From an uncultured delta proteobacterium (GTDB taxonomy: Bacteria; Desulfobacterota; Desulfobaccia; Desulfobaccales; 0-14-0-80-60-11): 64,000 nucleotides of DNA. The position numbers and the translations under genes were made by a program. Of the stretch, positions 28,609 through 45,552 are shown in pieces (the stretch's first letter is position 1; the number at the start of each line of letters is the position of its first letter). The notes beneath the pieces are model-generated. The model had not been told where the DNA came from and did not search any database. It worked only from the letters and a program-made list of their open reading frames with translations. The stretch covers positions 113,128-177,127 of the forward strand of contig CAVXZU010000014.1 in assembly GCA_963766185.1 (NCBI GenBank), given 5' to 3'.

Positions 28609-29038
28609 GCCGGAGATTTACCCCGGCCGGAACGCAGGCTGGATAATTCGCCAGACAGCAAAGAACTTGGTGGCACAGGCTTTCCAGCCTGTGCAAAAAA
28701 CACTCTGCTTTTCAGGGTTATTTAATTTACTGTTATATTTTAGTAGGTTATGCAATATTTCGAAAAGTTCATGAATAAAGCAGGCTAGGCCTGAGCCCCG
28801 GGAGGACACGGCTCCCCGGAATGACCAGGGATGGCCCCGGAGTCGCCCGGCCCCCTTTATGCAAAGCCATCCGGGACCCCTCGACCTGGTGCGGGCCGCG
28901 ACAGATGGAAGCTCTCTCGGTCCGGGCAAGCCGGAAAAGGGCGGGCGCCTCTGCCCGGCCGCGTTCTGTTCCTGCCAGCCCGGTTGACCTGTTTCCCGGC
29001 AGTGCTTACCTATATGTTTATCAGACAAGGAGGCAACC

Positions 29039-30393: not shown

Positions 30394-30598
30394 GGCTGGA
30401 GCAGCGGGATTTATGCGGACATTGGCCACAAGCCATTATCACGCGAACGGGCACTCCCACCAGGGACGCCCAGCCTTATGGTGCGGCGGCAACGACCGCG
30501 CCGCGCCTCGGCTCAAAGACCAAAGGGATAGGGGCCAAAAGCACGCAAGCTTATCTCGGCCCCTGACACCAGAAAACTCTCTGGAGGGAGAAGGGAAA

Positions 30599-31123
30599 AT
30601 GTTCAAAGAAGAACGGGAAGAAACCCAATTCGAATGGAGCATGTTGGGCGATATCGAAAACGGCCGCCCCAATCTCGGCCCCATGGTCCACGTGGCCGTG
30701 TATCGTCTGATGCAGTTTACCCTGCGGGACATTCTCATCCGGGATTTTGGGGTCGAGGAGGCCAACAGGATTGTTTTCGAGGCCGGGAAGAAAGCCGGGG
30801 AAGAGTACTGCAAAAACGTCCTTGCCGAGAAGAAGGACATGGATGGCCTGTTTGCCGAGCTCCAGCGCACCATGAAGGAACTCGGCATCGGGATTTTCCG
30901 GGTCGAATCGGCCGATTACGACAAGGGCTCTTTTGTGGTAACCGTAGCAGAAGACCTGGATTGCTCGGGGATTCCCGTATGCTCCGAGGAGATCTGCACG
31001 TATGATGAGGGATTTATTGCCGGCCTCCTGCTGGCCTACTCGGGAAAGGACTTTCACGTCAAGGAAGTCGACTGCTGGGGCACCGGGGGGAGGGTCTGCC
31101 GTTTCACGGTTGACCCCAAATAA
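30599..31123 (+). CDS. V4R (4-vinyl reductase) domain protein
   Basis: Start MFKEEREE after GGAGGGAGAAGGG. The ORF track start at 30374 is unsupported. ...VTVAEDLDCSGIPVCSEEICTYDEGFIAGLLLAYSGKDFHVKEVDCWGTGGRVCRFTV matches the V4R C-terminal Cys pattern. Confidence 0.65.
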   Translation: MFKEEREETQFEWSMLGDIENGRPNLGPMVHVAVYRLMQFTLRDILIRDFGVEEANRIVFEAGKKAGEEYCKNVLAEKKDMDGLFAELQRTMKELGIGIFRVESADYDKGSFVVTVAEDLDCSGIPVCSEEICTYDEGFIAGLLLAYSGKDFHVKEVDCWGTGGRVCRFTVDPK

Positions 31124-31132
31124 GGTTCTCAG

Positions 31133-32572
31133 ATGATCGAGGTTGAAGAGAAGCTTATTGATGAGATTACCGCAACGTTCCATTATCTGCGCGCCGGGAA
31201 AGTCCCTGAACCCATCCCGATACCGGATGACCTCCCGGACAACGAGATTCGCCAGCTTCTTACCTATGTGAACCGCTTCCTGGTGGAGTTCGCCATGTTC
31301 ACCGAAGCCATGGCCCAGGTCGCCCAGGGAGAATTGGACCTCCGGCCCCTGGCAAGCCGCCTGGCCGTGACCCATTCCTTCAAGGCCCTCCAATCGAATC
31401 TCAAACACCTTACCTGGAAGACCCAGCAGATCGCTGGGGGGGATCTGGAGCAGCGGGTTGATTTCATGGGGGATTTCTCCATCGCCTTCAACACCATGAC
31501 CGAGCAGCTTAAGGAGTCCCGGGCCCAACTGGTCGACCTGAACCAGCAGCTTGAGCATCGCAATAAGTTCATCCGGGAGACCTTTGGCCGTTATACCGGC
31601 GACGACATCGTGGATGTGCTCCTCGACCTGCCCGAAGGGCTCAAGCTCGGGGGAGAGAAGCGCCAGGTTACCCTCCTGATGTCCGACCTCCGGGGGTTCA
31701 CCGCCCTGGCGGAGCGCCTTGAGGCCACCCAGGTTGTCGCCCTGCTTAACCATTACCTTTCCCGCATGATCGAGATAATCCAACGACGCGGCGGCACCAT
31801 CGATGACATCATCGGGGACGCCATCCTGGTGGTGTTTGGTGCCCCCGTGGCGACGCCGGATGCGGCCCAACGTGCGGTCTGCTGTGCCCTCGAGATGCAG
31901 AAGGTGATGCAGGAGGTAAACGAATATAATTTTCAAAAAGGTTGGCCCGAAATCGAGATGGGGATTGCTCTCCATACCGGCGAAACGGTGGTGGGCAATA
32001 TCGGCTCGGCTAAGCGGTCGAAGTACGGGGTCATAGGTCAGCCGGTCAACCTGACGGCTCGTATTGAGACCTTCACCGTTGGCGGGCAGGTGCTCGTCTC
32101 CCCTACCCTGATTGGCGCCGTTGATCGTGGACTTATCCTCGGTGATGAGGTCAAGGTCCGGGGCAAGGGCATGGAAAAGGCCCTGAGATGTCGTATGTTG
32201 CTGGGCCACGAAGACCACCCGGAGCTCTTGCTCACGGAAGAGGCGGCGAGCTTCATAACCCTTGCCGAACCCATGGCCTTCTCCTTCGTAAGTCTGGCCG
32301 GCAAACAACTTGACGACAAGATGCATCCGGGTACTTTTCTCTCCCTCTCCACCCGGCGGGCGATCATCGAGGTCGCCGACCCACTTGAGTCGTATGCCAA
32401 CATCATGCTGCGGGTGGAGGCCGAGACCGGGGACGCGGCGTCGGAGCTGTACGCCAAGGTGATGCGTCCTCTTGATGAGTCAGCCCGGCGTTACCTGATC
32501 CATTTCACCCTGGTCCCGCCTGCCGTCCAGTCGCGGTTCCAACGGCTGACAGAAGGGATCAAGGGCCCGTGA
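31133..32572 (+). CDS. class III adenylate/guanylate cyclase with HAMP-like linker and unassigned C-terminal domain
   Basis: VTLLMSDLRGFTALAE, IGDAILVVFGAP, GIALHTGETVVGNIGS..RSKYGVIGQPVNLTARIE. The preceding FNTMTEQLKESRAQL resembles HAMP. Confidence 0.88.
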   Translation: MIEVEEKLIDEITATFHYLRAGKVPEPIPIPDDLPDNEIRQLLTYVNRFLVEFAMFTEAMAQVAQGELDLRPLASRLAVTHSFKALQSNLKHLTWKTQQIAGGDLEQRVDFMGDFSIAFNTMTEQLKESRAQLVDLNQQLEHRNKFIRETFGRYTGDDIVDVLLDLPEGLKLGGEKRQVTLLMSDLRGFTALAERLEATQVVALLNHYLSRMIEIIQRRGGTIDDIIGDAILVVFGAPVATPDAAQRAVCCALEMQKVMQEVNEYNFQKGWPEIEMGIALHTGETVVGNIGSAKRSKYGVIGQPVNLTARIETFTVGGQVLVSPTLIGAVDRGLILGDEVKVRGKGMEKALRCRMLLGHEDHPELLLTEEAASFITLAEPMAFSFVSLAGKQLDDKMHPGTFLSLSTRRAIIEVADPLESYANIMLRVEAETGDAASELYAKVMRPLDESARRYLIHFTLVPPAVQSRFQRLTEGIKGP

Positions 32573-32660
32573 GCCTGGATGGATCTTGGGTCCCATCCAT
32601 CGGGTCCGGGTGGTCTTCCTTTGCCTTCGGGCTTATGATATATTTACATTTGCTGTAAGG

Positions 32661-32758
32661 GGAAGTGCGAGGTTCACTGGTGGGGCCCCCGGACTTCAAA
32701 TCCGGTGTGCCGTCTGCTGAAGGCGGTAGGTGGGTTCGATTCCCATGCACTTCCGCCA
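32661..32758 (+). tRNA. selC: tRNA-Sec (anticodon TCA, 32696-32698), CCA encoded
   Basis: GGAAGTGC...GCACTTCC 8-bp acceptor stem, anticodon loop CTTCAAA, long variable arm (tgtgccgtctgctgaaggcggtagg), T arm GGGTTCGATTCCC, 3' GCCA. Same architecture and conserved blocks as E. coli selC (GGAAG..., GGACUUCAAAUCC, CUUCCGCCA). Confidence 0.93.
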
Positions 32759-33021
32759 ACGATTTGCGAGAATGGAGGTCAAATTTTTTGGCCTCCTTTT
32801 TCTTTGGTGAGTAGGTTGTGATGCCAATTTATATGGCCGGGGCTTATATGGACGAAGGCCACTTCACCTACAAATCTAAATCTGAATTCATGAAGGTGGC
32901 CCGGGCGGCGCTCAACCCTTTACAGGCAGCCATCTTTTGGCAAGCGGGCGGTAAACTGACCTGAGCCGATAAGCTGGTGCGTAAGTTTTTTTACCTGGCT
33001 CGGAAGCCATTGACCATCGGG

Positions 33022-33654
33022 CTAAGCGCTCAGTGGATTGAACTGGAGCATTGCTTGGAGCCGTTGGGCCCAGACCGCTGCCTGCTCAGGTTTATGGGCC
33101 TCGGGCAGACCGAGACTCAAAAGACTGGAGCGAGTCTCGTGCCACCGGCGGGCCATGATGGATTTCTGGCCTCGGGTTGCCGGTTCGGGCTCAGCCAGCC
33201 GAAGATAATGGTCGATCATTCTCTCGACGGCATTCCAGAGATGTCTTTCGAAGTAAGGTTTGAGTTCGCCCCAATCCTGGAATGGCTTTATGGTGTGTCC
33301 GTGTTCGGGACTTTCGAGCCGGTCTATAAAGTCGGCGAGACGTGGTTCTCGGTCTTGACATTCCCTGACGTAGATAAGTATTTCCCGGCGGGAATTCTCC
33401 AGGGCGGTTTCGTATTCCAGACAGGTCGGGGAACTGTAAATGCAGCCAAACAAGCCTACATAAATGGGAGCGCGGCGGACGCGATTCAAGAATGTGTCCT
33501 TCACCGTCTCGCGTTCCGGAGACCAGTCCTCGGCAAGATCGGCGGCAAGCAGCGGTAACTTCCGGATTACCTGCTCCATCCCTAAGCGTTCACGTTGAAA
33601 TTCTTTCTGTTTGCTACTGATGAACACTCGCACCACCTCAGAAATTTCAGCCAT
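33022..33654 (-). CDS. DUF4062 domain protein (TIR/flavodoxin-like fold family)
   Basis: 210 aa. VRVFISSKQKEFQRERLGMEQVI...APIYVGLFGCIYSSPTCLEYETALENSRREILIYV matches the DUF4062 signature (VFISS..-ER; Y.G..G.RYG; E...A; L.F). The C-terminal ~90 aa are unassigned. Confidence 0.75.
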   Translation of the reverse strand: MAEISEVVRVFISSKQKEFQRERLGMEQVIRKLPLLAADLAEDWSPERETVKDTFLNRVRRAPIYVGLFGCIYSSPTCLEYETALENSRREILIYVRECQDREPRLADFIDRLESPEHGHTIKPFQDWGELKPYFERHLWNAVERMIDHYLRLAEPEPATRGQKSIMARRWHETRSSLLSLGLPEAHKPEQAAVWAQRLQAMLQFNPLSA

Positions 33655-33690
33655 AGATTTTCTCCCCAGGATACATCAACAGAGAATACT

Positions 33691-36534
33691 TTAGCACGTG
33701 TCGCGCCCCTGCTGTCCAGCCCAGAGGCGCTTTAATTTGTTTAACTTTTGCGAAGGCAACCGGACCCGGTTGGTAGCGCCGTAGAGAGAATAACCGGACC
33801 AGTGGATCGGGTTCGACACATCGAAGCCGACAGCGAGTCCGTGCAAACAATCGAGTTGGGTTTGGCGAAGCGCCTCAGCGCGAGAGAGCGATACAAGCCG
33901 ATCATAATAACGCGCCAGGAACATCGGCGCAAGCCGGTCATCGACTTCCCACAGATTCGCCACAACGCTACGCACTCCTGCGGCCCGGAGAGTCTGGGGT
34001 AAACTTATGACCCAGCGCCCTGGCAAAAGAAAGTTATCCGCGGACCAGCACGACGCCAGCACCGCCTGCTCCACTCTCCGAAGATCGAGCGTATGCAATT
34101 GCCGCAACGTGAGAAATTCTTCTTGATTTCCCTGTATCAGCACGAACCCGGATTGATCAGGTGCATCTACTCGGAACCTGCCATGACAGACGATGTGGAA
34201 AAAGCGGGATTCCGGAAGCAGGCGAATGAGTGAGTCAGAAGTGGGATCAAACTCGTTGCGGGAAGCTATGCCATGGGTGCTGAAATGGTCACTCACCGCG
34301 GTCGCTTCTTCCAGGGCGACTTTGATGGGCGGGTAATCTTCCGTGCCCTTTAGAACGGCAGCAACCAAAGCTTCGCCCTTCTTTGGGGCGGAGGAATGAA
34401 CCCCGCTCATAATGTATTCTACGGAAATTGAAAAGCGCTCGACAAGATATTGTCCACCATAGGGCAAAGCAGAGAACGGCAACCCATGCAAGACATCATC
34501 CGGCATAAAGCGGATTTGCCGTATGCGGGGGGGCAGTGTGCTGAGAAAGGCGGGGAGAGTCAGGGCATAAGCAAGCGGATCAAGGATATCTGACAACATT
34601 TGGCCGGTGGCTCCCTCGAGCACTGACTCATGCCAGTGGCGCACCGCATCCCGGAGCTGAATACGGCTGAGCGCGGCGATCGCGAAGTCAATGGAAAGAG
34701 CTCGAACATGTATGACAATCACTTGATCCGGGAGAACCACAAAGCGGAACGTGGTGCGTTTCCGCCCATGGGCGACCATCCACCGGAAAACCGCAAAGCG
34801 GTTCCACAAAGGTGCCGGGCGAGCGCCAGCCACACGCGCCCCGATTTCGGACTGATAACGATCGAGATAACCCAGAAACCGAAGGAGATCGCGGGTTAAT
34901 TTCCACTTAAGGATCAGGCGACGCAGGATTCCCGAATTTTGGGCTTGTTGGCGAACCGCGGCCAGGCGCACAAATTCCCCGGCGAGAAACTCCTCTTCAA
35001 CCGTCCATTTGTTCAGCTGGTAGATGGCGCGTTCAGGGGGAGGCAGGGTCAGAGTGAGTCGGTTGAGCACGTCATCAGTCTGTGCCCGTAGGAGGGCCGC
35101 CGCCTCTTGGTGACCAGCCCGGGTCTCGCACCAGGACAGGGAACGATACACCTGCCAAAGGAGGCCGGTGGCCTGCATATCAATAAACGCATCGCGGACC
35201 CGCGAGAATCCGCTATAGGCCTTATCGATTTCGTTTTGATAATAGAGGAGGTTGGAGCGCAGGGCATCGAGCAGGGTGTGAATGAGGATTGAATCGGTTT
35301 CGCCAAACGCGGCGTTCAGTTCATCCAAATAGATTTCGGCTGTGGCCCAGTCTGAGCGGTCCAGGAGAAAATGGAACCCGAGGGTGCGATCCTCGAACGA
35401 CGCCAGATAGCTTTGACAAGCCGGGATGTCCATGGGGGAGGGCCAGCCAGAGGTCTCTGCGGCAAGGGGAATAGGCGGGCTCTCCTCGCCGCCCCACATC
35501 TGGAGAACGGACGGGCCAATGGAGATACCGTCCAGGAAAGAACGGGCCCGTCCGGAAGCAAGATATTCCAGAAGCTCCGCCCGGATTTGCAGACGTGCAT
35601 GATTGTTGGTCTCGACCGCGGTCTTGACGCGCTGAATCAACCGGGTGGCCTGCTGGGTTTGATTGAGTATTATGAGGATGCTGGCCAGATTGAGGGAAGC
35701 GTTCAATTCGGCTAATGGGAAAGATCCCTGCTGGCAGGTCTTAATTACCCGTTCGAAGCTTTCCTTAGCCAAGCCCAACTCACCCTGGAGAAGATGCAAC
35801 TTACCGAGCAACTCATCCCGCTGCACCGCAAGGGCTGGATTGGGCTGTTGGTCAAGCTGAGCCTCAAGGTTATCCAGCTCGGAATAAGCCCCCAGCAGAT
35901 CGCCGGATTCGAGGTTTGCCGTGGCGATGACTAGATGGAAGGCCGGTTTGGCTTGAAGGCTAATTTCACCTTGACCGTGCTGGAGGCCGCGCGCCGCGGC
36001 GGTTAGGGCGCAGCGATACTGACCGTTCGCGAGGTGGATGTGCGCCATTTCCAGATAAAGACGTGAAAACATGAGGGATATTTCGTCCGGAGCGCCGGTC
36101 CAGCCATGGCCCGATTCCCATTTTTTGAGGGCCGACTCCGTGAACTCGAGATCGTCAATGTTCCCGGGTGCGCCGTGGAGATTCAGCAGGATTGCGTAGG
36201 CGTCGCGAATCAATCCCTGAGCACGATAAACAGAGGCGAGTTTGAGAGCTGTGAAGTCGGCGCAATAGAGATTTGAGCTGGCCGCGTACCAAGCACGCAC
36301 GGCTTGCAGCAGATTCACAGCCGGGGTGTAAAACCCATACAGGACCGCGAGGTCGGAGAGCCGTTCCAGGGCGACGACGTCAAGGCCCGTGGCTGGACTT
36401 TGGGCGCCGACGCCCGCTTGCAGGCGGGCCACCATCAGATCGCGATAGCTCTGAAAGGCGCCTTCAAAGTCGCCACGCTGAAACTGGTCTTCGGCACGGT
36501 GAAAGGCCGTCCGCACAGCAGTAATATCCATCAC
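33691..36534 (-). CDS. TPR-repeat CHAT-domain (caspase-like) protease
   Basis: 947 aa. The N-terminal ~550 aa are TPR-like helical repeats. The C-terminal CHAT domain has catalytic His (FFHIVCHGRF) and Cys (AVLASCWSAD), then RAAGVRSVVANLWEVDD...FYD. Confidence 0.9.
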   Translation of the reverse strand: MMDITAVRTAFHRAEDQFQRGDFEGAFQSYRDLMVARLQAGVGAQSPATGLDVVALERLSDLAVLYGFYTPAVNLLQAVRAWYAASSNLYCADFTALKLASVYRAQGLIRDAYAILLNLHGAPGNIDDLEFTESALKKWESGHGWTGAPDEISLMFSRLYLEMAHIHLANGQYRCALTAAARGLQHGQGEISLQAKPAFHLVIATANLESGDLLGAYSELDNLEAQLDQQPNPALAVQRDELLGKLHLLQGELGLAKESFERVIKTCQQGSFPLAELNASLNLASILIILNQTQQATRLIQRVKTAVETNNHARLQIRAELLEYLASGRARSFLDGISIGPSVLQMWGGEESPPIPLAAETSGWPSPMDIPACQSYLASFEDRTLGFHFLLDRSDWATAEIYLDELNAAFGETDSILIHTLLDALRSNLLYYQNEIDKAYSGFSRVRDAFIDMQATGLLWQVYRSLSWCETRAGHQEAAALLRAQTDDVLNRLTLTLPPPERAIYQLNKWTVEEEFLAGEFVRLAAVRQQAQNSGILRRLILKWKLTRDLLRFLGYLDRYQSEIGARVAGARPAPLWNRFAVFRWMVAHGRKRTTFRFVVLPDQVIVIHVRALSIDFAIAALSRIQLRDAVRHWHESVLEGATGQMLSDILDPLAYALTLPAFLSTLPPRIRQIRFMPDDVLHGLPFSALPYGGQYLVERFSISVEYIMSGVHSSAPKKGEALVAAVLKGTEDYPPIKVALEEATAVSDHFSTHGIASRNEFDPTSDSLIRLLPESRFFHIVCHGRFRVDAPDQSGFVLIQGNQEEFLTLRQLHTLDLRRVEQAVLASCWSADNFLLPGRWVISLPQTLRAAGVRSVVANLWEVDDRLAPMFLARYYDRLVSLSRAEALRQTQLDCLHGLAVGFDVSNPIHWSGYSLYGATNRVRLPSQKLNKLKRLWAGQQGRDTC

Positions 36535-36552
36535 GACACCGATCAGCCTTAC

Positions 36553-39500
36553 TCAGTGCGAGGCGCGGGTTACCACGATGTAGGCTAACCGCTGGCGCCG
36601 CTTCTTCTCGTCATCTTGCCCCGCTGATGTTGGTAAAATCGCGATTACGGGCGTATAGCGGAACGATTGTTGAGCATGATATTCGTGGTTTGCCAGGCGA
36701 AGGGTAACCGTGGGCTTGGATCCGAAGGCCACAGTGGGCCGAAAATGGGCCAGGTCAACCAGGTCAATTTCATGGATGGAGACCTTTCCGGCGGAGATGG
36801 ACTGGCGTAGGCTGGCCTGCACGGAAGGATTCCAGTCGAGATTGTTGATCCCGGCGCCATCCGGGATATAGACCGGCCTATCCGGGTGGAGCAGCAAGGT
36901 TTCGAGATCAGCGGTCTTGCCTGTGGGAAGCTCTCTGGTTCGATACTCGAAAGTGATTTGTTTCCCCTTCACAACCGGCCGGAGATCCCCTGCGGGCTTA
37001 AACTGGAGGCGGTAGTTGCGCCAGTCGGAAATCGCGGCAAGGTGATGGAGATTTTCCTGGATGGGTTTGTTGCCGATGGAACCTCGGATACGCAGGTTGA
37101 CTTCATCGAAGAAGGCGTTGTACTCACGCATCGGAGTTAAATCCGCCTCTTGAAGACTGGCAATGGCTCGCTCCGGCTTGCCGGCGCTCAGTTCTGCTAA
37201 TCCCTTTCTGGCCATGAAATCCGGGTGTTTCCCATAGAAGAAAATCAAGTCGTCCATTTGACGTGAGGCCAGATCAAACTGGCCGCGGGCCAGATAGGCG
37301 TCATTTTGCTTGAGCTGTTCGCCTAAGAAGGCCTTAAATCGGACCCGGAATTTATCCGGATCAGCAGCGACCTCGCGGGCCGCCTTGAAGTAGTCGCGTT
37401 TCCCCAGGATTTGCTGCAGCCGGGCGGTATCTGAGAATCCACCGCCTCCGCCTGCTCCCAACTCCGCGAGTCGCCCGGGGTTCCCGTGCAAATCCGGGGG
37501 GAGATCCCGGTACCGGATGTAGTAAGAGCCGGTTTTGGGGTCGATATGGCCGGGTAACCGTTTACCACCGATAGTGAAATTCGTGAGGGGGACGCCTTCC
37601 GGGGGGCCGCGGGCGCCGAATTCAACGATGGGTGCTTCGGTAACTGCCGAGGCCGGCTTTATCCTGATGAAGCTTTCGCCAGGGAGGTCTGCCGGGACCT
37701 CGAACGTTTTCGTCCAGGCCACGTCGATGGAAAAAGCTTTGGGGTCCGCTTCGGCGATGCGAGCCTGGCACCCTGGGGAAATTACCTGGCTGTCTCTGGA
37801 GCCCGCCGTGAACCTGATCCAACGGCCGCTGCCGCTCAGTTCAACCGAGATACCCTTCCCAGGCACTAAGATCACTGATTTTACCGCCGGGTCGGATTGG
37901 AGTATTTGGAGGACCTTATCATCACGCGCAATGCTAAGCCGGCGGGCCGCGGTTTGAGCCCAGTCAACATCGCGACTGCGCCAGCCGATTTTGAAGCCCT
38001 GGGTACTGGGGGAGATTCGCAGTTCGCCGACCTCCGCGCCCGCGGCCCTGGTTTGGAGGACAAAGCGATGCGGGGTCCGTTCAATGACAGTTTCGAAATG
38101 AGTGTTTTTGATTTCCCCGAAAATGCCGCGTAAACGGACTTTGGGGCCGGTATGGGCGATAATCTTGGTGACATTACCCTCCACCGGCTTAAAAATGAAT
38201 TTACTCTTGTTGAGCATTTGGATCTCACCGACGCCGGACTCGGCAAAGTCAACAGCTCCCCGGCGAGCCGAGGCGGGGACCTTTTGGGTCAATGAGGCGC
38301 GGAAGGCCAGGGCTTCGCGGCGGGCCAGAGAGACACCCCCCCTCCAAATAATCAGACGGCCGGAAGGAGTATGGAGGATGGGAAGCGCTTCGGTTGAAGT
38401 GCCGGCATAGCCTTGGGGCAGGAAACTGATGGCGTCCCAGTTCCGGAACGTCAGTTCCGGATGCTTGCGGGCCCAGTCAGGGAACTGTTGCGGCTTTTCG
38501 TCAGGAACGTTTTTGAGGAAACCGAGCAGGCTGCCATTACCTTCCGTGTTGAGCCAGCCGATAAGTTGGCTCCACTTCATGATCTCGTTAAGACGTTCAT
38601 ACTCCGGTTCGTGGCGGGCGACCTCTTCAAAGTGGTCGTTCCACCAGGCGATGAATATACGGGTTACGTAGTTGGGCTCGGCTTCGGTACGGTGATCGGC
38701 GTTGGTGAGGAAATCATGGGGCACGGCGAAGACGCGGGTAGCGTTGCGTGCAAATGATATCGAGCCTTTATGTTGGCCTATCTGAAAACCGCTGTCGAGG
38801 GAACCGAGCCATAATCTGGTTTCGCCCAGGTCACGAAATTCCTGGTTATAGTTGACTGGGACAATTATGTCTGGATTGAATGGGAAGCCATCGATCGACC
38901 TGGGGCAGCATTGGTGAAGTCCAGTGCCCACAGCTTCATGAGCAGATCGGTATAGAACAGGACCATGCCGGTTTCGGTGCCTTGGAGTCGACCGTCATAC
39001 CGGGCTGCCTGAATCAGTCCCTTCCAGAAAATATCGCGAACGAGGGGGGAGGATTTATCTCCTGGGATACCGCTGGCCTGGAAGCCATGTAATAACGCTT
39101 GACTTAAGGCCCTTTCATCCTTCGCAGCGATGGCCTCCCGAGCCTTTTTAAAAGCGTTCTCGTCCAACAATATGGAAAGAATAAACTGAGTTTCCAACTC
39201 AATGCACAGCTCTTTGCCGAGGCCTCGGGCTTGGCAGCCTTTAATTAAGGCCTCGATTTTGTCGCCATGGATAAAAGCTTGGAGGGCCTCCTTACCGAAA
39301 ATTTTTTCGGCGTTTTTGCGGACTAACAACAATTCGTTCAGATAGGCGCCCATCTTCTCGAAGTCCATCCGAGGGTCGAGAGAACCCGCTGCCGGTCCGC
39401 TTGCCGGAGGAATCGTTTTCTGATTTCCAGACGGTGGCCACATCCTCGACCCGGATGTGGCGATACGGGCGGCTCAGAAGTTTCCGCCCTCCCAGCACAA

Positions 39501-40209
39501 GAGCGGAACCATCCTTCCGGGCATAGGTGATATCATCGATCTGGCTCATGAAGGCACGGAAGTCAGCGAGTGAGGTGATGGTCTGTTCCCGGTAGCCGTA
39601 GGTTGCGGTGAAGAGGGCCTTGCCTTCAAGGGATTGGCGGCGGGTTACCCGGGCAAACTGCTCGTCAGGGATGATTTGGTATTCGAAGATATGCACAACC
39701 GCGGGGATACTGCCCAAATTCTTGCGCTCTCTATCAGCAATGTGGGCCAGTTGATCGGGGCGCGCCGGGGTTCCCGCCGGAATGAGGGCAATGACCTCAC
39801 CTGTCCCGACGAGGGCGGAACGGGTTTCCCCTGATTCGATAGTGGCAACGCGCCGCAGGTGGTCATTGCGCGCCACCGGTATATCGTAGAGCACCTGGTT
39901 GAGGCTATCCAGAGGCAGGTTGAGCGAAGAGATAATCGAGATCAGCAGCCAATCCCGGTATTGATCAAGGAGATCGCGACGGGAAATCTTGCCGTTTTTG
40001 GTGCGGGAGTTTTCCTCTCGCCAGCCGGCCTGAAGCTCGTCGAGGTTGGCATCAAAGTCGATGGCGCGGACCTGGTCAACCGGAAAACCAACGAATTGAA
40101 GCGTCGCAGCCACTGGTTTGGCGATCGGGCTTAATAACTTTACCATGACAACGACGGCTACCAGGATGACCAAGGTGCTGAGCGTAGCGACGATCCTTTT
40201 GAGGTTCAT
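36553..40209 (-). pseudogene. ~1,200-aa N-terminally TM-anchored protein of unknown function; three overlapping ORFs joined by two frame changes
   Basis: ORFs 39292..40209 (TM helix IVATLSTLVILVAVVVMV), 38865..39443 and 36553..38931 run frame 0 -> 2 -> 0. The tails after the overlaps look like out-of-frame junk (R/S/G-rich). Plausible junctions are ...[28 protein letters not shown] (~39380) and ...[12 protein letters not shown]/(S)[20 protein letters not shown] (~38900, at cgatcgat). The C-terminal part has TPR-like helices. Confidence 0.6.
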
Positions 40210-40224
40210 CTCTGCTTCTCCTTA

Positions 40225-42171
40225 CTAGTCTGGTTGGCGAACCGCGACGAGTTTCCGGAACCGCTTAAAATGAAGCCGGGCGGCATCGGACTTAGGGTCC
40301 TGGGCGAAGGACCAACGTACCAACGCTTCGCTATAGAGCGCTTCAACCTCTTGCTGGCGTGGATCAGGCGCCAACACGCCATTACTCAAAAACTGTTCTG
40401 ATTTCTCAATGATGGTAATATGATCGCCCTGAGCGGAGGCCTGGATAATAGCTTGATAAGCGGCATCGCGCGCGTTGCGGTGGCTGGGCTCTCGAATGCC
40501 AAGGACTGCAGCGCAGCAGATCAGGACCAGGGCAAGCGCAAGTTCGGCTTTGACCCACTTCGCCTGGCGGCTGAACAGCCAGAGCATGAACGGTTCCAAG
40601 CTGAACCTCTTCTTATCAGTTTCCGGGACGATCATGGGCAGGGAGGCCTGGCTGGCTTCAGACTGAGGTTCCGCCTGGGGCGCCGGAGAGAGTTCTGCTT
40701 TGGTTGCATCCCTGAGCAGCCGGTTGGCCAGAAAGGAGGTAACGGTGTTGGCGTCGAGTGCGGCAAGTGCGGGATCTTCGGCGGCGATCTGCATCCAAAG
40801 AGTGCTGATCTGCGACTCGGATTCTGGTTTCTGTTCGGCAACTTTTCCCAAGGCGGTGAAAAGGTTGAGGGGGCGCGGATCTTCCACCGTGGGCTTGTCG
40901 AAGCCCATTTCTGTCCAGATCGTGAACGCCAGTGCTTTTTGTCTGTCGTGCTGCAGTTGGGCGGAAGCTTCCGATTCCGCAAACTCGTTTATGAGGGAAA
41001 AGCCAATGGCTGCCTCCTGGTGCATCCGCACTCCCTCCGGGGTGAGAGTGGTGTTGGGGGCAGCTTTGATTTCTTCGAGTACCTTTGATACGTCCTCTTG
41101 GAGATCGGTCATCAGCTTGATGATTTGTTCACGTGAACTCCAAAACTTTTCAGAGCCGGGATTTAATACAACCGCGGTTTCTACTTCAAGCAGGGCTGTT
41201 GACAGCTTTCCGGCATTCGCCAACTTCACGGCGCAAAGGTGATGCAAATCGCCGAGTAGATCGAGAACAAACAGGCTGTACGGAGCATAAGAGCGCAAGG
41301 TATCAAGACGCAGAATTCCCTCGTGAATCGTCTCTGCATCTCTGGTGGACGCCGTTCCAGAGTCATCGCCGCTGAGGCTTTCGAGAGTCGCAGAGAATTG
41401 AAGGTCTGCTGCGAGATTAACGTACTCCTCCTCATCTGGAAAGCGCTCGACCAAGTCTAATTTTGCGCGCCAATAGGCGTTTTCCCATTGTTTGGCATCC
41501 CGAAGAGCAGCAATTTCCCGTTTGGTATTGGTGACGAAAGCCGAATCGTCGTGAAAACAAAGCTCAGCGCAGTCACGCTTAAGCTTATAGATATAGTTGA
41601 GGTGAACGAAACAGCGATGCGATGGCTCTGGTGATGTGCCCAACGACCGAAGCCCATTGTAGAAAGCCCAATGTACATTTAAAAAGAGTTCCTGGACAAA
41701 GTGGCGGCGGATCTGGTCGAGAGAAACGGCACCAGACAGGCCAAGCCGATCGGATACTTCGGTTATGAGCTGCTGCCAATCCGCACCTGCTTTGACGACT
41801 TTACCAAGTTGCAAGTGAGCTTCTTGCCAGAGGAAATCGGCGCGGACGTATCTGCCTTGGCGTTCGGCGTCGATGGCCAACTGCCGGAGGCGAAGGAGAC
41901 GACCGATACGTTCTGGGAAATTGAGTTTTAGGCCAGCGATAAAACGAGAGCGGCTCAAGGTCTCGCCGGCCGTGACAATCTCATGCGCAACCTTTTGGGC
42001 AGCAGATGGTTCGCTCTGGCCGACGGCGTCTGTTCCAGGCTGGGGCTCGAAAATCCAATCAAATGCCGGAGTTGAATCTGCATTTGCCATTTCATTCGCC
42101 TCCGTTCTCCCCTGACGGGCCACAGTGGGGTTGGGAATTGTGTTGAAAAAGTTTCTGTTCCATAAAGACAC
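40225..42171 (-). CDS. 648-aa all-helical protein with a single TM helix near the C-terminus, unknown function
   Basis: Intact ORF 15 nt upstream of the giant gene. TM segment WVKAELALALVLICCAAVLGI at about residues 545-570. No P-loop or known catalytic motif seen. Confidence 0.7.
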   Translation of the reverse strand: MSLWNRNFFNTIPNPTVARQGRTEANEMANADSTPAFDWIFEPQPGTDAVGQSEPSAAQKVAHEIVTAGETLSRSRFIAGLKLNFPERIGRLLRLRQLAIDAERQGRYVRADFLWQEAHLQLGKVVKAGADWQQLITEVSDRLGLSGAVSLDQIRRHFVQELFLNVHWAFYNGLRSLGTSPEPSHRCFVHLNYIYKLKRDCAELCFHDDSAFVTNTKREIAALRDAKQWENAYWRAKLDLVERFPDEEEYVNLAADLQFSATLESLSGDDSGTASTRDAETIHEGILRLDTLRSYAPYSLFVLDLLGDLHHLCAVKLANAGKLSTALLEVETAVVLNPGSEKFWSSREQIIKLMTDLQEDVSKVLEEIKAAPNTTLTPEGVRMHQEAAIGFSLINEFAESEASAQLQHDRQKALAFTIWTEMGFDKPTVEDPRPLNLFTALGKVAEQKPESESQISTLWMQIAAEDPALAALDANTVTSFLANRLLRDATKAELSPAPQAEPQSEASQASLPMIVPETDKKRFSLEPFMLWLFSRQAKWVKAELALALVLICCAAVLGIREPSHRNARDAAYQAIIQASAQGDHITIIEKSEQFLSNGVLAPDPRQQEVEALYSEALVRWSFAQDPKSDAARLHFKRFRKLVAVRQPD

Positions 42172-42212
42172 CTCCTCATCGAAGCAGGATTGAGGAGTTG
42201 GAGGAGCGATGC

Positions 42213-42983
42213 CTACACTTTGGCGTTCTTGGCAATTTCAATGTTGGTCAGCCAACCCATAACCGGTTCATCAGGTTTACCGTGTTCCGTAACGAAAACA
42301 TCTTGACAATCCTTTACACCCTCCATGATGGCTTTTGCGTCTGCAAGATTTTGATCTAGAGCCACAAAGGCCAATGTCTTGCTAACGTAATCCTTCATCC
42401 CATTGAAGTTCAGGAAATCTTCCAGAGTCGTGGTGTTCAATTGGAATCCCTGCCCCTTAGCAAGGCTTTCTTCGGCGAGGAACTTGTAGAGCATGCTCTG
42501 ATGGATCACGTACCGGGTGACACCCTTGTCGTCCAGGATAGGAATGCGGGTGACCACGCCCACCAGAAAGTCTTTCAAAATCTCGAGTTTTATATCCTTT
42601 TCGCTCTGGCCGGCGGACAACCGTACGGCCTTTATAGAGCTTACCGGCAACATGGCTTTCCGGACCGGGATGCTGCGAAGCTTCTCATCCGGGGTTAACT
42701 CTTTGACTGTATTAATAAAGGACTGACTTGCTGCCTGAAAGTTATCTTTAGAAAAGTAGTAGGCCAGTATCGTCCCGACCCAAGTTCCGATAAGCGGTAA
42801 GATGGCGGTAAAGACCATTTGGGTTGTCTCTCGGAGGTGCGAGGTGCTGGTGAGGGCAACGGCAATAATGACCATTGCTGCCAGAAGCATCAAACCTATG
42901 GTGGATCCGTAAACAATCCGCCTGGCGATGGTGGCACGGTCCTGTCGTTCGGCGACTTCAACCGCTTTATCTCCGTTTGACAT
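42213..42983 (-). CDS. 2-TM membrane protein with cytoplasmic CBS-domain pair
   Basis: TM helices IVYGSTIGLMLLAAMVIIAVAL and MVFTAILPLIGTWVGTILAYYF. CBS-like units IPVRKAMLPVSSIKAV...VTRIPILDDKG and VSKTLAFVALDQNLADAKAIM...DVFVTEHGKPDEPVMGWLTNIEI. Confidence 0.75.
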   Translation of the reverse strand: MSNGDKAVEVAERQDRATIARRIVYGSTIGLMLLAAMVIIAVALTSTSHLRETTQMVFTAILPLIGTWVGTILAYYFSKDNFQAASQSFINTVKELTPDEKLRSIPVRKAMLPVSSIKAVRLSAGQSEKDIKLEILKDFLVGVVTRIPILDDKGVTRYVIHQSMLYKFLAEESLAKGQGFQLNTTTLEDFLNFNGMKDYVSKTLAFVALDQNLADAKAIMEGVKDCQDVFVTEHGKPDEPVMGWLTNIEIAKNAKV

Positions 42984-43052
42984 ACGTATTCTCCTTGTAA
43001 TTAATTATCTTTATGTATCTGAATGAATGGACGGGCCATATCCAGTCAGATC

Positions 43053-43265
43053 TTAAATCCTTAGCCTTTTAGAGTTTGGATATTTCCCATCAATGATATG
43101 CTGAACGCATTTCAAGACCTCACCCTGGGGGGATATTGATCCGGGTAAGACAGGGTTTTGATAACCAAGTTCTTTGATTTTTTTGTGATAAACTGGTTCA
43201 CAAGGAAGACAAAAAGAAAGAAAAGTTTGAGGTGGGGGAAGCGAGGAGGAGGCAGTCATGCTCAT
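43053..43265 (-). CDS. small hypothetical protein with CxxC (possible degenerate glutaredoxin-like fold)
   Basis: 70-aa ORF. First reading frame downstream of the predicted promoter. FLSFCLPCEPVYHKKIKELGY...QHIIDGKY loosely resembles NrdH/Grx. The RBS is poor. Confidence 0.3.
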   Translation of the reverse strand: MSMTASSSLPPPQTFLSFCLPCEPVYHKKIKELGYQNPVLPGSISPQGEVLKCVQHIIDGKYPNSKRLRI

Positions 43266-43383
43266 TACCTCGATAAAAATAAAAGCCGGGCCCCTCTTTC
43301 GGAAACCCGACTTTTTACGTCAGCATAGTGATGCCCCCTGCTGGGGATTGAATGGCAGTATTTTATCTACCGCATTTTTTAAA

Positions 43384-43412
43384 ATTTAACCATTAACCTA
43401 TAAATTTGTCAA
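43384..43412 (-). promoter_or_regulatory. candidate sigma-70 promoter of the island operon
   Basis: Minus strand reads TTGACA (43412-43407) - 17 nt - TTAAAT (43389-43384). It sits in a short AT-rich tract ~120 nt upstream of the first island ORF. Confidence 0.5.
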
Positions 43413-43438
43413 CAATTTATAAGACTATTTAAGAAACT

Positions 43439-43831
43439 TTGCATGGTCCAGCAGTTTGGGCCGGGACCCCTTGCTTTCTCCATTTTTGGCAGAATAGACA
43501 CGTGGCTGAAGGTGCTCTTGAGAAGTTGGGGATGAACTTGAAGCCAGCCAAGACCAAGGCCGAGGTTCAACGGGTGCAGTGCCTGTGGTTGCGGGCTTCT
43601 CTGAGGCTTTCTGCGGGCCAGGTGGCTACCCGCTATAGCTTTGCTTCCCAAGCTCTCAATTCCGGAACTCCTCAGCATTTAATCGGGGCTTTCTTGGGGC
43701 ATAAAGATCCCCAATCTACCGAGCGCTACGCCCATCTGGAAACCGGGCCCCTGGTCCAGGGCTGGAACCGCCACGAGCAGGTGCGGCACCAACTTGGCAC
43801 CAAAGCGCAAATTGGCGGCGCTAACCTATGA
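43439..43831 (+). pseudogene. tyrosine recombinase (integrase) remnant, C-terminal box only
   Basis: ...ATRYSFASQALNSGTPQHLIGAFLGHKDPQSTERYAHL retains the LGH....T..Y.H catalytic tail, but the HxxR box is degenerate. The ~250 N-terminal residues of a normal integrase are missing. Ends 30 nt before the distal direct repeat. Confidence 0.65.
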
Positions 43832-43860
43832 GAATTTTATCTTCAACTGTAACTATTCTT

Positions 43861-43889
43861 TGGGTTCGATTGCCATGCACTTCCGCCAA
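43861..43889 (+). repeat. distal direct repeat (att-like) = copy of the tRNA-Sec 3' end
   Basis: tgggttcgattGccatgcacttccgccaa versus tRNA positions 32731-32759. The single mismatch is at 43872. Confidence 0.85.
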
Positions 43890-44524
43890 TCTTTTCCAGG
43901 AGGCGCCATAGCCGCCCCTGGCCCGCCTGACCGGAACCATCTTGCGACTAACTGTTTGACAACGGGGAAATATTTTATAAAATTTAATAAGAAACCAGGC
44001 TAGGGGGCCTGCAAGCCTTTCCATGAGGGGAACGCTTTCCGGTCGTTCCCTTTATAGTTTTCAGGCAACGCTGAAGCTGACCTTGAGCCCGAATCTTTGG
44101 AAGTTACAGTTCCCTGCGGGTATGCGGCGAGGTTACCTGGTGCAGAGAACCCAAGGGCTACGGTTTTATTTCCCGGAACGGGCGGCCCGAGGTCTTCGTC
44201 CACCACCGTAAAATTTCGGGCGAGGGCTTTCGCACCCGGGATGAGGGCCAGAAAGTCGAATTCGGAATGGCGGCAGGGACAAAGGGTCCCTCATGACGAA
44301 GCTTTAGCGTAGCGGAGCCTTAAGGCGGTGGCGGCTGACTATTGGCGGCCACCCCGAGGCCGGAATACCACGATCTCAGCGGTTCAGGCGCGGGGCAAAC
44401 CGCAGCAACAGTTTGACCCGACGGCGTGGCGGCCGCCCCTGAAAGGAGTCGCCGCCTTAGTAACCATCAAGCAACTGGCGCAGCAGGCGTGACATCTGTT
44501 GCCACCAGACCACTAGGAGAAGTT

Positions 44525-45022
44525 ATGAGCAAAGTTAAAAATGGCGATTTTGTCCAATTGCATTACACCGGCACCCTGGAAGACGGCTCGGTCTTTGACA
44601 GCAGCGACGGCCGCCCCCCCCTGGAGTTTCAGGTGGGCGGCGGGGGAATTATCCAGGGCTTCAATGATTCGGTTATCGATATGGCCCTCAATGAAGAGAA
44701 AAAAGTGGTTCTCACCCCGGACCAGGCTTATGGCGAACCCCGGGAGGATCTCAAGCGGGATTTTCCCGCCTCGATGTTGGAAGGGAATCCGGTTGAGGTG
44801 GGCCAGCAGCTGCGGTTCTCCAGCCCCCACGGCCCTGTATCCGGGACGGTCTTGAGCATCGAACCCGAGAAATTTGTGGTGGATTTCAACCATCCGTTGG
44901 CCGGGCAGACGCTCTCGTTCGATATCAAGATCGTGGGCATCAGCGACACCCCCAGCCAGCCCCAGGAAGGGTGCTCCTGTACGCCTTCCTCCTGCTCCTC
45001 CGGCTGCGACTCCTGCGGCTAA
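44525..45022 (+). CDS. slyD: FKBP-type peptidyl-prolyl isomerase, SlyD-like, with Cys-rich tail
   Basis: Start MSKVKNGDFVQLHYTGTLEDGSVFDSS after GGAGAAG. IIQGFNDSVIDMALNEEK, IF-insert region, NHPLAGQTLSFDIKIVGI, tail CSCTPSSCSSGCDSCG. The ORF track start at 44426 is not supported. Confidence 0.85.
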   Translation: MSKVKNGDFVQLHYTGTLEDGSVFDSSDGRPPLEFQVGGGGIIQGFNDSVIDMALNEEKKVVLTPDQAYGEPREDLKRDFPASMLEGNPVEVGQQLRFSSPHGPVSGTVLSIEPEKFVVDFNHPLAGQTLSFDIKIVGISDTPSQPQEGCSCTPSSCSSGCDSCG

Positions 45023-45062
45023 CTTAGCCGGTTGACAGGGGAATTATAAACTTACTCAATAA

Positions 45063-45103
45063 CCAGGGGTTAGGCCGCATCAGCCTAACCCCTGGCTTTT
45101 ATT
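45063..45103 (+). terminator. rho-independent terminator
   Basis: 13-bp perfect stem ccaggggttaggc / gcctaacccctgg, 7-nt loop, then cttttatt. Confidence 0.8.
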
Positions 45104-45552
45104 GCCAACCCCTGCGTCAACAACGGGTCGGAAAAGCCCAAAATATGCCTTTGGCCTGCCCCCATGGATTATCCCGGAACTTAAGTTAGCGTTGGGGCAA
45201 AGCCGGGCAAGTTGGGCGGTGATTGGCACCACCACGATTATCATGATGACCGGCAGGTGGTTGCCCATCTCGCCGCCACCACCCCGGGCGTCAAGCCCCG
45301 GCCCTCCCTCTAGTGGCCCCTGCTGGCTCTGACCGTGCTCGGCTATTTCTTTCTGACCCAAGGGGTAAAGTTCTGGATAGGGCGTAAGGCCTGGATTTGA
45401 TCCGCATCGACGGAGTTTCGCGAGGTGGTGGTGAAATGCCCAAGAGCGGAGGCCATCAGGCAGAAAAGAGTCGATATGCTCTGGATATGGAGTGTTGAGG
45501 CGTTCGGTGATACGGCCAGAGGCTCGATGACTGGGTGATAGAGAGTTAGGGG

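What the first reader, a model, noticed from the sequence alone, without database searches (positions are those of the whole stretch)
32731..43889. ~11.1 kb genomic island inserted in tRNA-Sec, bounded by a 29-nt direct repeat
The last 29 nt of selC, including the T arm and acceptor 3' strand (32731-32759), recur at 43861-43889 with one mismatch. The intervening DNA is visibly more AT-rich than its flanks. It encodes only accessory functions and ends with an integrase remnant 30 nt from the distal repeat. selC is a classical island integration hotspot (LEE, SHI-2 and PAI-I in enterobacteria). Seeing the same logic in this unrelated high-GC genome supports horizontal acquisition of the CHAT operon.
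Basis: partly seen in the sequence, partly recalled or inferred. Interest (0 to 1): 0.7.

Follow-up and report, generated by a model that had tools for sequence, protein, structure and literature searches.

The report
Decayed genomic island in tRNA-Sec gene
An 11.1-kb piece of foreign DNA sits in the selenocysteine tRNA gene of an uncultured sulfate-reducer-like deltaproteobacterium, put there by a phage-type integrase that is now mostly deleted. This is an ordinary kind of genomic island, but it carries an uncharacterised caspase-like (CHAT) and NADase-like gene cassette that may be a new immune system.

Summary

- **Repeat:** tRNA-Sec lies at 32661-32758. Its last 29 nt (32731-32759) recur at 43861-43889 with one mismatch, and 100 shuffles gave no chance matches.
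- **Empty sites:** two relatives (L001, L070) have selC joined directly to the sequence that follows 43889.
- **Occupied sites:** a 98.75%-identical strain (L073) carries the same island with a perfect 29/29 repeat. A third relative (L071) has the same site occupied by a sister element with an intact 432-aa tyrosine integrase that abuts the selC fragment.
- **Integrase:** the window keeps only about the last 82 codons, so the island is immobilised.
- **Composition:** G+C is 54.7% against 59.9% for the rest of the window. GC3 is about 0.62 against about 0.78.
- **Cargo:** a four-gene cassette conserved across phyla.
  - A is a TPR-like membrane protein.
  - B is about 1200 aa with no known fold.
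  - C is a TPR-CHAT protease.
  - D is a DUF4062 TIR-like NADase.
  - An unrelated membrane protein (E) is also present.
  - B is broken by two frameshifts here and by a different one in L073.

The island is a new member of a known kind. The cassette is the more novel part, and a defence role for it is inferred, not shown.

The parts
32661..32758 (+). selC, an intact tRNA-Sec gene (anticodon TCA, CCA encoded). It is the integration target, and its 3' end is re-supplied by the element.
   Evidence: ARAGORN. Rfam RF01852 at 74.7 bits. It is 100% identical over 99 nt to selC of the empty-site relative L001.
32731..32759 (+). attL copy of the 29-nt direct repeat, covering the T arm to the 3' end of selC plus one A.
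   Evidence: Junction alignments A1 and A3.
32774..32796 (+). Terminator-like hairpin followed by a T run, 15 nt after selC and inside the island. It is probably a transcription terminator supplied by the element for the tRNA.
   Evidence: 10-pair stem, 5 G-C pairs, then TTTTTCTTTG. Alignment A3 shows no counterpart to this sequence downstream of selC in the empty-site relatives L001 and L070.
33022..33654 (-). Gene D, 210 aa: an N-terminal DUF4062 (TIR-like NADase) domain plus a C-terminal extension.
   Evidence: Pfam PF13271, E 1e-06, 29.3 bits against a cut-off of 24.7. Orthologues follow the CHAT gene in L045 and L067, at 42-44% identity; E80 in the LEY motif is invariant in all three.
33691..36534 (-). 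Gene C, 947 aa: a TPR plus CHAT (caspase-like, clan CD) protease.
   Evidence: Pfam PF12770, E 1.5e-48. It is 40% identical end to end to the L045 CHAT protein. The motifs FFHI(V/A)CHG and L(A/S)SCWSADN are conserved.
36553..40209 (-). Gene B, about 1200 aa, with an N-terminal membrane helix, a large alpha/beta body and a TPR-like region. It is split into three ORFs (40209-39292, 39443-38865, 38931-36553) by frameshifts at about 39378 (2 nt missing) and 38902 (1 nt missing).
   Evidence: The three ORFs align to P0004 residues 1-277, 277-396 and about 400-1179. Reading frames run -2, -3, -2 against the continuous L072 gene. Exact indels come from comparison with L073. The AF2 model of the homologue has pLDDT 86.5, with no PDB match below E 0.05.
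40225..42171 (-). Gene A, 648 aa: an all-alpha TPR-like solenoid with one long membrane helix near the C terminus.
   Evidence: It is 35% identical to the gene upstream of B in L045. An exhaustive HMMER search gave 409 cluster representatives. The AF2 model has pLDDT 88.9, with a helix at residues 538-581 and only weak TPR matches in the PDB.
42213..42983 (-). Gene E, 256 aa: a predicted membrane protein that matches no family. It is not part of the conserved cassette elsewhere.
   Evidence: Searches gave no significant family. The six cassette loci from other organisms have a different gene, or none, upstream of A; the short contig L072 has a histidine-kinase C terminus there.
42984..43584 (.). 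AT-rich non-coding stretch (about 40% G+C at 43001-43500) holding a promoter-like site on the - strand (43412-43383). It is the likely scar of the deletion that removed most of the integrase gene and the element backbone.
   Evidence: No ORF here matches a family.
43585..43831 (+). Tyrosine integrase remnant, about the last 82 codons of a protein of about 432 aa. It keeps box II with the catalytic Tyr.
   Evidence: Pfam PF00589 and PHROG 1. It is 72% identical to residues 342-425 of the intact L071 integrase, and 75% identical to the L065 integrase.
43861..43889 (+). attR copy of the 29-nt repeat. G43872 breaks the T stem.
   Evidence: Strain L073 has C at this position, giving a perfect repeat.
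43890..45138 (+). Native downstream flank, including an FKBP-type isomerase gene (44426-45022). In the empty-site relatives it is contiguous with selC.

Best explanation
Window 32760-43889 is the fixed remnant of an integrative element. The element entered the 3' end of the tRNA-Sec gene (selC) by tyrosine-recombinase site-specific recombination.

Shown:
- The element's attP carried a copy of the last 29 nt of selC, with the integrase gene ending just upstream of it (39 nt in the sister element L071).
- Recombination with selC therefore left an intact tRNA at attL.
- It placed the integrase and a selC 3' fragment at the far end (attR).
- Relatives have the same site empty, or occupied by a sister element with an intact integrase.
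- The island was already present, with its truncated integrase, in the common ancestor of two strains that are 98.75% identical.

Inferred:
- A later deletion removed about 80% of the integrase gene and any excision or backbone genes. This locked the island in place.
- The terminator-like hairpin just after selC is supplied by the element.
- The cargo is a conserved cassette A-B-C-D. A is a TPR-like membrane scaffold, B a large membrane-anchored protein of unknown fold, C a TPR-CHAT caspase-like protease and D a DUF4062 TIR-like NADase.
- The cassette most plausibly acts as a membrane-associated abortive-infection or conflict system. A and B would sense a signal and control the protease, and the NADase would deplete NAD+.
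- In this genome the cassette is probably inactive, because B is frameshifted.
For: - Repeat and tRNA.
- Empty sites: L001 has selC at 100% identity, followed directly by the homologue of 43890-45138 at 87.7%. L070 shows the same.
- Same island in a strain: L073 is 98.75% identical over 16.1 kb and has a perfect 29/29 repeat. SNP density is 1.05% in the island against 1.24% and 1.22% in the flanks.
- Sister element: L071 has an intact 432-aa integrase (PF00589, E 2e-18) whose stop codon abuts a 39-nt selC fragment, followed by the same host flank at 88% identity. A CI-like HTH-S24 repressor and a Cro-like HTH protein lie upstream.
- Second relative of the integrase: L065 has an integrase 75% identical to the remnant, ending about 8 nt before an identical 29-mer.
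- General layout: 18 IMG/VR viral contigs carry the selC 3' fragment without a full tRNA. In at least 11 of them a 348-540-aa ORF ends 20-105 nt upstream in the same orientation, and five representatives were confirmed as PF00589.
- Composition.
- No phage structural genes or defence-model hits.
- Cassette conservation in Acidobacteriota, Verrucomicrobiota, Cyanobacteria and metagenomes.
- DUF4062 is a TIR-like NADase acting in antiphage defence: preprints 10.64898/2026.05.01.722283, 10.64898/2026.09.04.749371 and 10.64898/2026.06.25.731849.
- Frameshifts in B.
Against: - No excised circle or attP of this exact element was seen, so mobility is inferred from relatives only.
- Polarity is not settled. 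Insertion in this lineage, and ancestral occupancy followed by precise excision in L001 and L070, predict the same junctions.
- The composition shift is modest.
- For the cargo, no PADLOC or NCBIfam model matches. The only PADLOC hit is BovA at E 0.0013.
- A and B have no informative structural match.
- D is present in only 3 of the 7 distinct cassette loci examined.
- No experiment links this cassette to defence.
- I could not map the catalytic Glu of D onto the published E97, because I lacked a reference sequence.
- The frameshifts in B could still be assembly errors, although the distribution of indels argues against that.
Confidence: 0.9

Rival explanations
1. Reverse polarity. The selC site was already occupied in the common ancestor of the window organism, L001, L070 and L071. 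L001 and L070 then became empty by precise integrase-mediated excision, and the cargo was later exchanged between the window and L071 lineages.
For: The host flanks of the window, L071 and L001 are about equally diverged, at 86.5-88.3%, and two of the four lineages are occupied by elements with related integrases. Precise excision restores exactly the junction seen in L001 and L070.
Against: The integrase remnant is more diverged from the L071 gene (79.5% nt, 72% aa) than the adjoining host flank is (88.3%). No cargo similarity between the window island and the visible 4.8 kb of the L071 element was found by blastn. This scenario needs two excisions plus a cargo replacement, against one or two insertions.
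Confidence: 0.2
2. The island is what remains of a full temperate phage that integrated at selC, like the L071 element and the IMG/VR contigs. It lost its structural and regulatory genes by deletion, leaving only a moron-type cargo and the integrase tail. The alternative is that it was always a small integrase-plus-cargo island.
For: The sister element has CI-like and Cro-like regulators next to its integrase. Viral contigs of 10-120 kb share the integrase-then-selC-fragment layout. The window has an AT-rich non-coding scar and an integrase truncated at its 5' side.
Against: No phage family other than the integrase was detected among island ORFs (PHROGs), so there is no positive trace of a phage backbone. 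Only 4.8 kb of the L071 element is visible, so its own nature is not fully known.
Confidence: 0.4
3. The repeat is a coincidence or an assembly artefact, and the region is native DNA.
For: None beyond the modest size of the composition shift.
Against: No chance matches in 100 shuffles. The same structure appears in an independent assembly from another sample, L073. Relatives have empty sites. The integrase remnant is placed exactly as in intact sister elements.
Confidence: 0.01

Closest known systems
tRNA-gene-integrated genomic islands and prophages using tyrosine recombinases, with crossover in the T-loop to 3'-end part of the tRNA gene (Williams 2002 classification and Islander-type islands; from my own knowledge)
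   Same: It has an intact tRNA at one end and a displaced 3' tRNA fragment as a direct repeat at the other. A tyrosine integrase gene lies next to the att site. Composition is atypical, and the element is absent from relatives.
   Different: The integrase is reduced to about 82 codons. No excisionase or backbone genes remain. The host is an uncultured Desulfobacca-like deltaproteobacterium (the genus is named only for L006).
Enterobacterial selC islands (LEE, SHI-2, PAI-I; for example PMC6174562 and PMC3408504)
   Same: The target gene is the same, selC, so the same logic is used in an unrelated phylum.
   Different: In enterobacteria a P4-type integrase sits immediately next to selC (my own knowledge). 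Here the integrase is at the distal end and reads towards attR. The cargo is not virulence genes. The selC sequence itself differs.
Type IV Thoeris, a TIR protein plus a caspase-like protease (10.1101/2024.10.24.620036; PMC13243611)
   Same: It pairs a TIR-type NAD-processing protein with a caspase-superfamily protease in one operon carried on mobile DNA.
   Different: D is DUF4062 rather than a canonical TIR domain. C is a 947-aa TPR-CHAT protein. Two large membrane proteins (A and B) are conserved partners. No PADLOC model matches. No signalling molecule is known.
Single-gene DUF4062 defence systems: Swarozyc, Evangelion, and the NIR-domain systems Vulcan and Vesta (2026 preprints)
   Same: D has a DUF4062 core followed by an auxiliary C-terminal region and is carried on a mobile element.
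   Different: Here D is the last gene of a conserved four-gene cassette with a CHAT protease, and it is absent from some versions of that cassette. Its activity has not been tested.
Craspase (type III-E CRISPR gRAMP with TPR-CHAT; PMC9729208)
   Same: The protease has a TPR-CHAT architecture.
   Different: No CRISPR array or gRAMP is nearby. A sequence search of the PDB with C at E <= 0.01 returned nothing.

Membership tests
tRNA-integrated genomic island (tyrosine-recombinase integrative element) | Intact tRNA gene at one boundary | tested here: met
   tRNA-Sec at 32661-32758, identical to selC of the empty-site relative.
tRNA-integrated genomic island (tyrosine-recombinase integrative element) | Direct repeat of the tRNA 3' end at the other boundary | tested here: met
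   28 of 29 positions match in the window, and 29 of 29 in strain L073.
tRNA-integrated genomic island (tyrosine-recombinase integrative element) | Integrase gene inside, next to an att site | tested here: met
   Only a C-terminal remnant survives (43585-43831), 30 nt from attR. Intact relatives in L071 and L065 lie in the same position relative to a selC fragment.
tRNA-integrated genomic island (tyrosine-recombinase integrative element) | Absent from the same site in related genomes | tested here: met
   Empty sites in L001 and L070.
tRNA-integrated genomic island (tyrosine-recombinase integrative element) | Composition differs from the host genome | tested here: met
   54.7% against 59.9% G+C, and GC3 about 0.62 against about 0.78.
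tRNA-integrated genomic island (tyrosine-recombinase integrative element) | Excision to a circular form | not testable with these tools
   This needs reads or PCR. It is expected to be negative here because the integrase is truncated.
Prophage | Phage structural, packaging or lysis genes | tested here: not met
   PHROGs matched only the integrase.
Enterobacterial-type selC island (LEE or SHI-2 layout) | Integrase immediately adjacent to selC at the tRNA-proximal end | tested here: not met
   The integrase remnant lies at the distal end. The gene nearest to selC is D, the DUF4062 gene.
Type IV Thoeris | Canonical TIR-domain protein and caspase-like effector recognised by the system's models | tested here: not met
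   A PADLOC scan gave no Thoeris hit for any island protein. D matches DUF4062, not TIR.
DUF4062 (NIR, Swarozyc or Evangelion) NADase effectors | DUF4062 domain above the Pfam gathering threshold | tested here: met
   PF13271 at 29.3 bits against 24.7.
DUF4062 (NIR, Swarozyc or Evangelion) NADase effectors | Catalytic glutamate (E97 in KpSwz, E1008 in TEP1) | tested here: inconclusive
   E80 in a conserved T-x-L-E-Y motif is invariant in three cassette D proteins. I had no reference sequence to map it onto E97.
CHAT (clan CD caspase-like) proteases | CHAT domain with a His and Cys dyad | tested here: met
   PF12770, E 1.5e-48, profile positions 17-288 of 289. The CHG and SC motifs are conserved with L045. 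Assigning these as the dyad is by analogy.
[quoted passage not shown]
   Pfam, NCBIfam and PADLOC scans of the island ORFs gave no Cas or gRAMP family. The repeat finder on 30000-50000 reported only two-copy direct-repeat families among those shown, so there is no array.

The most novel reading that the evidence does not exclude
The conserved A-B-CHAT(-DUF4062) cassette may be a previously undescribed, membrane-linked immune or conflict system. [quoted passage not shown] The cassette would be spread by selC-targeting integrative elements. Its cost or toxicity would explain why B has been knocked out independently, by different frameshifts, in two strains that are 98.75% identical.
Probability: 0.35. 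Interest if true: 0.65.

Novelty: new member of a known kind. Interest (0 to 1): 0.35.

Why it matters
The island itself is a textbook case. Its value is as a clean, fully bracketed example from an uncultured deltaproteobacterial lineage: empty site, occupied site, strain-level copy and a sister element with an intact integrase. It also shows that selC is a recurrent integration target well outside the enterobacteria. Eighteen viral contigs carry the same selC 3' fragment next to an integrase or integrase-sized ORF.

The more useful lead is the cargo. The four-gene cassette pairs a CHAT protease with a DUF4062 NADase domain, which was shown to act in antiphage defence only in 2026. The cassette is conserved across at least four phyla and is absent from the defence-system models I searched. 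It includes two large proteins with confident predicted structures but no known relatives. That makes it a concrete candidate for experimental testing.

Tried and rejected
- Exact-sequence look-ups of the window cyclase and of P0001 found nothing on record. The organism was instead placed through relatives.
- PADLOC, NCBIfam and PHROGs scans of all island proteins gave nothing useful. The exceptions were the integrase and a sub-threshold BovA hit on the CHAT domain.
- Sequence searches of the PDB with C, D and a B homologue found nothing.
- Foldseek with the B model against the PDB gave no hit below E 0.05. Against BFVD there was only a Tupanvirus J-domain protein at TM 0.16-0.20, which I regard as uninformative.
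- Foldseek with the A model gave only generic TPR solenoids.
- Three-frame translation of 42990-43835 and a scan of small ORFs found no further integrase fragments and no excisionase.
- A first attempt to judge the frameshifts from indels against L001 was too noisy. It was replaced by the comparison with strain L073.
- I first considered that the repeat mismatch marked an attP/attB difference locating the crossover. I rejected this because L073 and L065 have C at that position.
- I considered a tandem second island downstream. I rejected it because there is no third repeat copy at up to 3 mismatches, and L001 is collinear up to 45138.
Full report
**1. Observation**

ARAGORN finds a single tRNA in the window, tRNA-Sec (anticodon TCA) at 32661-32758 on the + strand. 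Rfam's tRNA-Sec model confirms it at 74.7 bits against a gathering score of 47.

The last 29 nt of the gene region, 32731-32759 (TGGGTTCGATTCCCATGCACTTCCGCCAA), run from the T arm through CCA plus one A. They recur at 43861-43889 with one mismatch, C32742 against G43872. No other copy exists in the window at up to 3 mismatches, and 100 shuffles gave none.

The 11,130 bp between equivalent repeat positions have 54.7% G+C against 59.9% elsewhere. All 307 non-overlapping windows of the same size are at least 58.5%. Island genes have GC3 of 0.58-0.66, against about 0.74-0.89 for most flanking genes.

The + strand ORF 43439-43831 carries the C-terminal box II of a tyrosine recombinase (LGHKDPQSTERYAHL; Pfam PF00589 positions 131-169 of 172, 27.0 bits against a 27.1-bit cut-off). 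It stops 30 nt before the distal repeat.

**2. Comparative test**

A search of species-representative genomes with the upstream HAMP-adenylate-cyclase protein returned 11 orthologous loci from uncultured deltaproteobacteria, including Desulfobacca and Syntrophobacterales MAGs.

| Locus | Relation to window | State of the selC site |
|---|---|---|
| L001 | cyclase 92% aa identical | Empty: selC 100% identical over 99 nt, followed directly by the homologue of 43890-45138 (87.7%), including the FKBP gene |
| L070 | metagenome contig, about 88% nt | Empty: selC joined to the FKBP flank |
| L071 | host flank 88% identical | Occupied by a sister element with an intact integrase |
| L073 | 98.75% identical over 16.1 kb | Same island, same place, perfect 29/29 repeat |

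- **L071.** The host flank is preceded by a 39-nt selC fragment. An intact 432-aa tyrosine integrase has its stop codon abutting that fragment, and it is 72% identical to the window remnant over residues 342-425. Upstream lie a CI-like HTH-peptidase-S24 repressor, a Cro-like HTH protein, a nucleoside deoxyribosyltransferase-like protein and a nucleotidyltransferase. This is a phage-like sister element with different visible cargo.
- **L073.** This is an independent assembly from another sample. It has the same truncated integrase. SNP density is about the same in the island (1.05%) as in the flanks (1.24% and 1.22%). The island therefore predates the split of these strains, and the single repeat mismatch in the window is a recent point mutation.
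- **L065.** This contig has an integrase 75% identical to the remnant, ending about 8 nt before an identical 29-mer in a different host context.

**3. Generality of the target**

The 26-nt core of the repeat occurs in 18 IMG/VR viral contigs, and none of them has a full tRNA-Sec. Some carry only the part from the T arm to the 3' end. Others carry a longer fragment that starts in the anticodon loop.

In at least 11 contigs an ORF of 348-540 aa ends 20-105 nt upstream in the same orientation. Five representatives are PF00589 integrases. The integrase-then-selC-fragment layout is therefore the normal attP organisation of elements that target selC. It predicts exactly what the window shows after integration: an intact tRNA at attL, and the integrase beside the displaced fragment at attR.

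The 29-mer is not a dispersed repeat.

**4. State of the element**

Only about the last 82 codons of the integrase survive (43585-43831). The 600 nt upstream are AT-rich, non-coding and without further integrase or excisionase fragments. PHROGs detects no phage gene other than the integrase.

A terminator-like hairpin lies at 32774-32796, just inside the island after selC. Alignment A3 shows no counterpart to it downstream of selC in the empty-site relatives. It is probably the terminator the element provides for the tRNA (inference). The island is an immobilised remnant.

**5. Cargo**

All large genes are on the - strand.

| Gene | Coordinates | Size | Description |
|---|---|---|---|
| E | 42213-42983 | 256 aa | Membrane protein with no family match |
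| A | 40225-42171 | 648 aa | TPR-like membrane scaffold |
| B | 36553-40209 | about 1200 aa | Membrane-anchored, unknown fold, frameshifted |
| C | 33691-36534 | 947 aa | TPR plus CHAT (PF12770, E 1.5e-48) |
| D | 33022-33654 | 210 aa | DUF4062 (PF13271), above the gathering threshold |

- **B is one gene.** Its homologues are about 1120-1220 aa. The three window ORFs of 305, 192 and 792 aa align to residues 1-277, 277-396 and about 400-1179 of P0004.
- **The order is conserved.** A-B-C is found in six other loci, from Acidobacteriota (Vicinamibacterales), Verrucomicrobiota (Nibricoccus), Cyanobacteria (Pseudanabaena) and metagenomes. D is present in two of them.
- **The genes are orthologous.** A, C and D are 35%, 40% and 44% identical to their L045 counterparts, and the first B fragment is 44% identical to P0004, the L045 B protein. 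The gene order is the same.
- **A's family.** It has 409 cluster representatives in an exhaustive search.
- **Structure models.** The models are confident: B homologue pLDDT 86.5 and pTM 0.83, A pLDDT 88.9. B has no PDB match below E 0.05. A resembles only generic TPR solenoids and has a long helix at residues 538-581.
- **Known systems.** No PADLOC or NCBIfam model recognises the cassette.

DUF4062 was shown in 2026 preprints to be a TIR-like NADase acting in antiphage defence, under the names Swarozyc, Evangelion and NIR. A TIR protein paired with a caspase-like protease is the design of type IV Thoeris.

On that basis I infer that the cassette is a membrane-associated abortive-infection or conflict system. 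This is an inference from domain content, conservation, patchy distribution and carriage on a mobile element. It is not a demonstrated function.

**6. Decay of the cargo**

Relative to strain L073, the window lacks GA at 39378 and one base at 38902. Those are the two frameshifts that split B here. L073 in turn has an extra C at 39180 that splits its own B into ORFs of 354 and 883 aa. A more distant relative, L072 (80% nt identity), reads through all three sites.

The other seven indels between the two strains fall in non-coding DNA; one at the alignment edge may be an exception. None falls in A, C, D, E, the cyclase, the FKBP gene or the rest of B, which together make up 75% of the aligned 16.1 kb (P about 6e-5 if indels were random). 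The indels therefore look filtered by selection rather than like random sequencing errors.

This suggests B has been inactivated independently in the two strains. Systematic assembly error at these sites cannot be excluded without the reads.

**7. Comparison with known systems and verdict**

The element meets every testable criterion of a tRNA-integrated genomic island. It differs from the classical enterobacterial selC islands in integrase position and in cargo, and it is not a recognisable prophage.

The polarity remains open: insertion in this lineage, or ancestral occupancy with precise excision in L001 and L070. The integrase is more diverged than the host flank (79.5% against 88.3% nt), which mildly favours separate acquisitions of related elements.

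The finding is correct and well supported, but it is of an ordinary kind: a new member of a known kind, with interest about 0.35. The part worth following up is the uncharacterised A-B-CHAT-DUF4062 cassette.

Noticed in passing
window 38902-39378 (gene B); L073 equivalent of window 39180: Three private frameshift indels cluster in a 476-nt segment of gene B: two in the window and one in the 98.75%-identical strain L073. No other indel hits any intact gene in 16 kb. The same segment is the least conserved part of the B family and cannot be aligned at DNA level with L072.
   Followed up: partly
L047-L064 (IMG/VR contigs): Eighteen viral contigs carry the selC 3' end without a full tRNA. They fall into two classes: a fragment from the T arm to the 3' end, and a longer fragment starting in the anticodon loop. 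Most have an integrase or integrase-sized ORF ending just upstream. selC with this exact 26-mer seems to be a common phage attachment site in environmental bacteria.
   Followed up: partly
L002, L004, L070 compared with window 28800-32760: The selC neighbourhood is rearranged among relatives. L002 (cyclase 90% identical) has no selC after the cyclase. L004 has selC 7.4 kb upstream of the cyclase, followed by about 1.5 kb of 45-52% G+C DNA, a sulfatase gene and an IS transposase. In L070 the selC-FKBP block is inverted.
   Followed up: partly
L001:11512-11911 compared with window 32645-32660: The empty-site relative has about 400 nt more DNA between the cyclase gene and selC than the window does (475-nt gap against 89 nt).
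   Followed up: no
L045:1-6022 and L066:45-6091: In two other genomes the A-B-CHAT cassette lies directly downstream of a ubiquitin-like conjugation gene set (YukD-like, ThiF E1, UQ_con E2, Prok-RING, JAB, FHA). In L066, L068 and L069 it lies next to further CHAT or caspase proteins with TCAD and DUF736x/7379 domains. This points to conflict-system neighbourhoods.
   Followed up: no
L065:1737-2690: The integrase most similar to the window remnant is interrupted by an in-frame TAG, giving ORFs of 193 and 120 aa in the same frame. It may be another decaying copy, or a sequencing error.
   Followed up: no
window 46650-47000: About 350 nt of very AT-rich non-coding DNA (35.8% G+C over 46501-47000) lies between small ORFs and the 701-aa ORF at 47269-49374. 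L001 collinearity with the window ends at 45138, and parts of 46355-46715 are conserved in inverted orientation in L003.
   Followed up: no
window 10313-11749 and 60442-62844: Two further genes, a histidine kinase and a GAF-domain protein, have low GC3 (0.66-0.68) and lie in lower-G+C stretches. They may be other acquired segments.
   Followed up: no
window 49095-56042: A 2315-aa ORF has GH94 supersandwich and catalytic domains plus a glucoamylase-like domain. It looks like a cyclic beta-1,2-glucan synthase or phosphorylase type protein and is unrelated to the finding.
   Followed up: no
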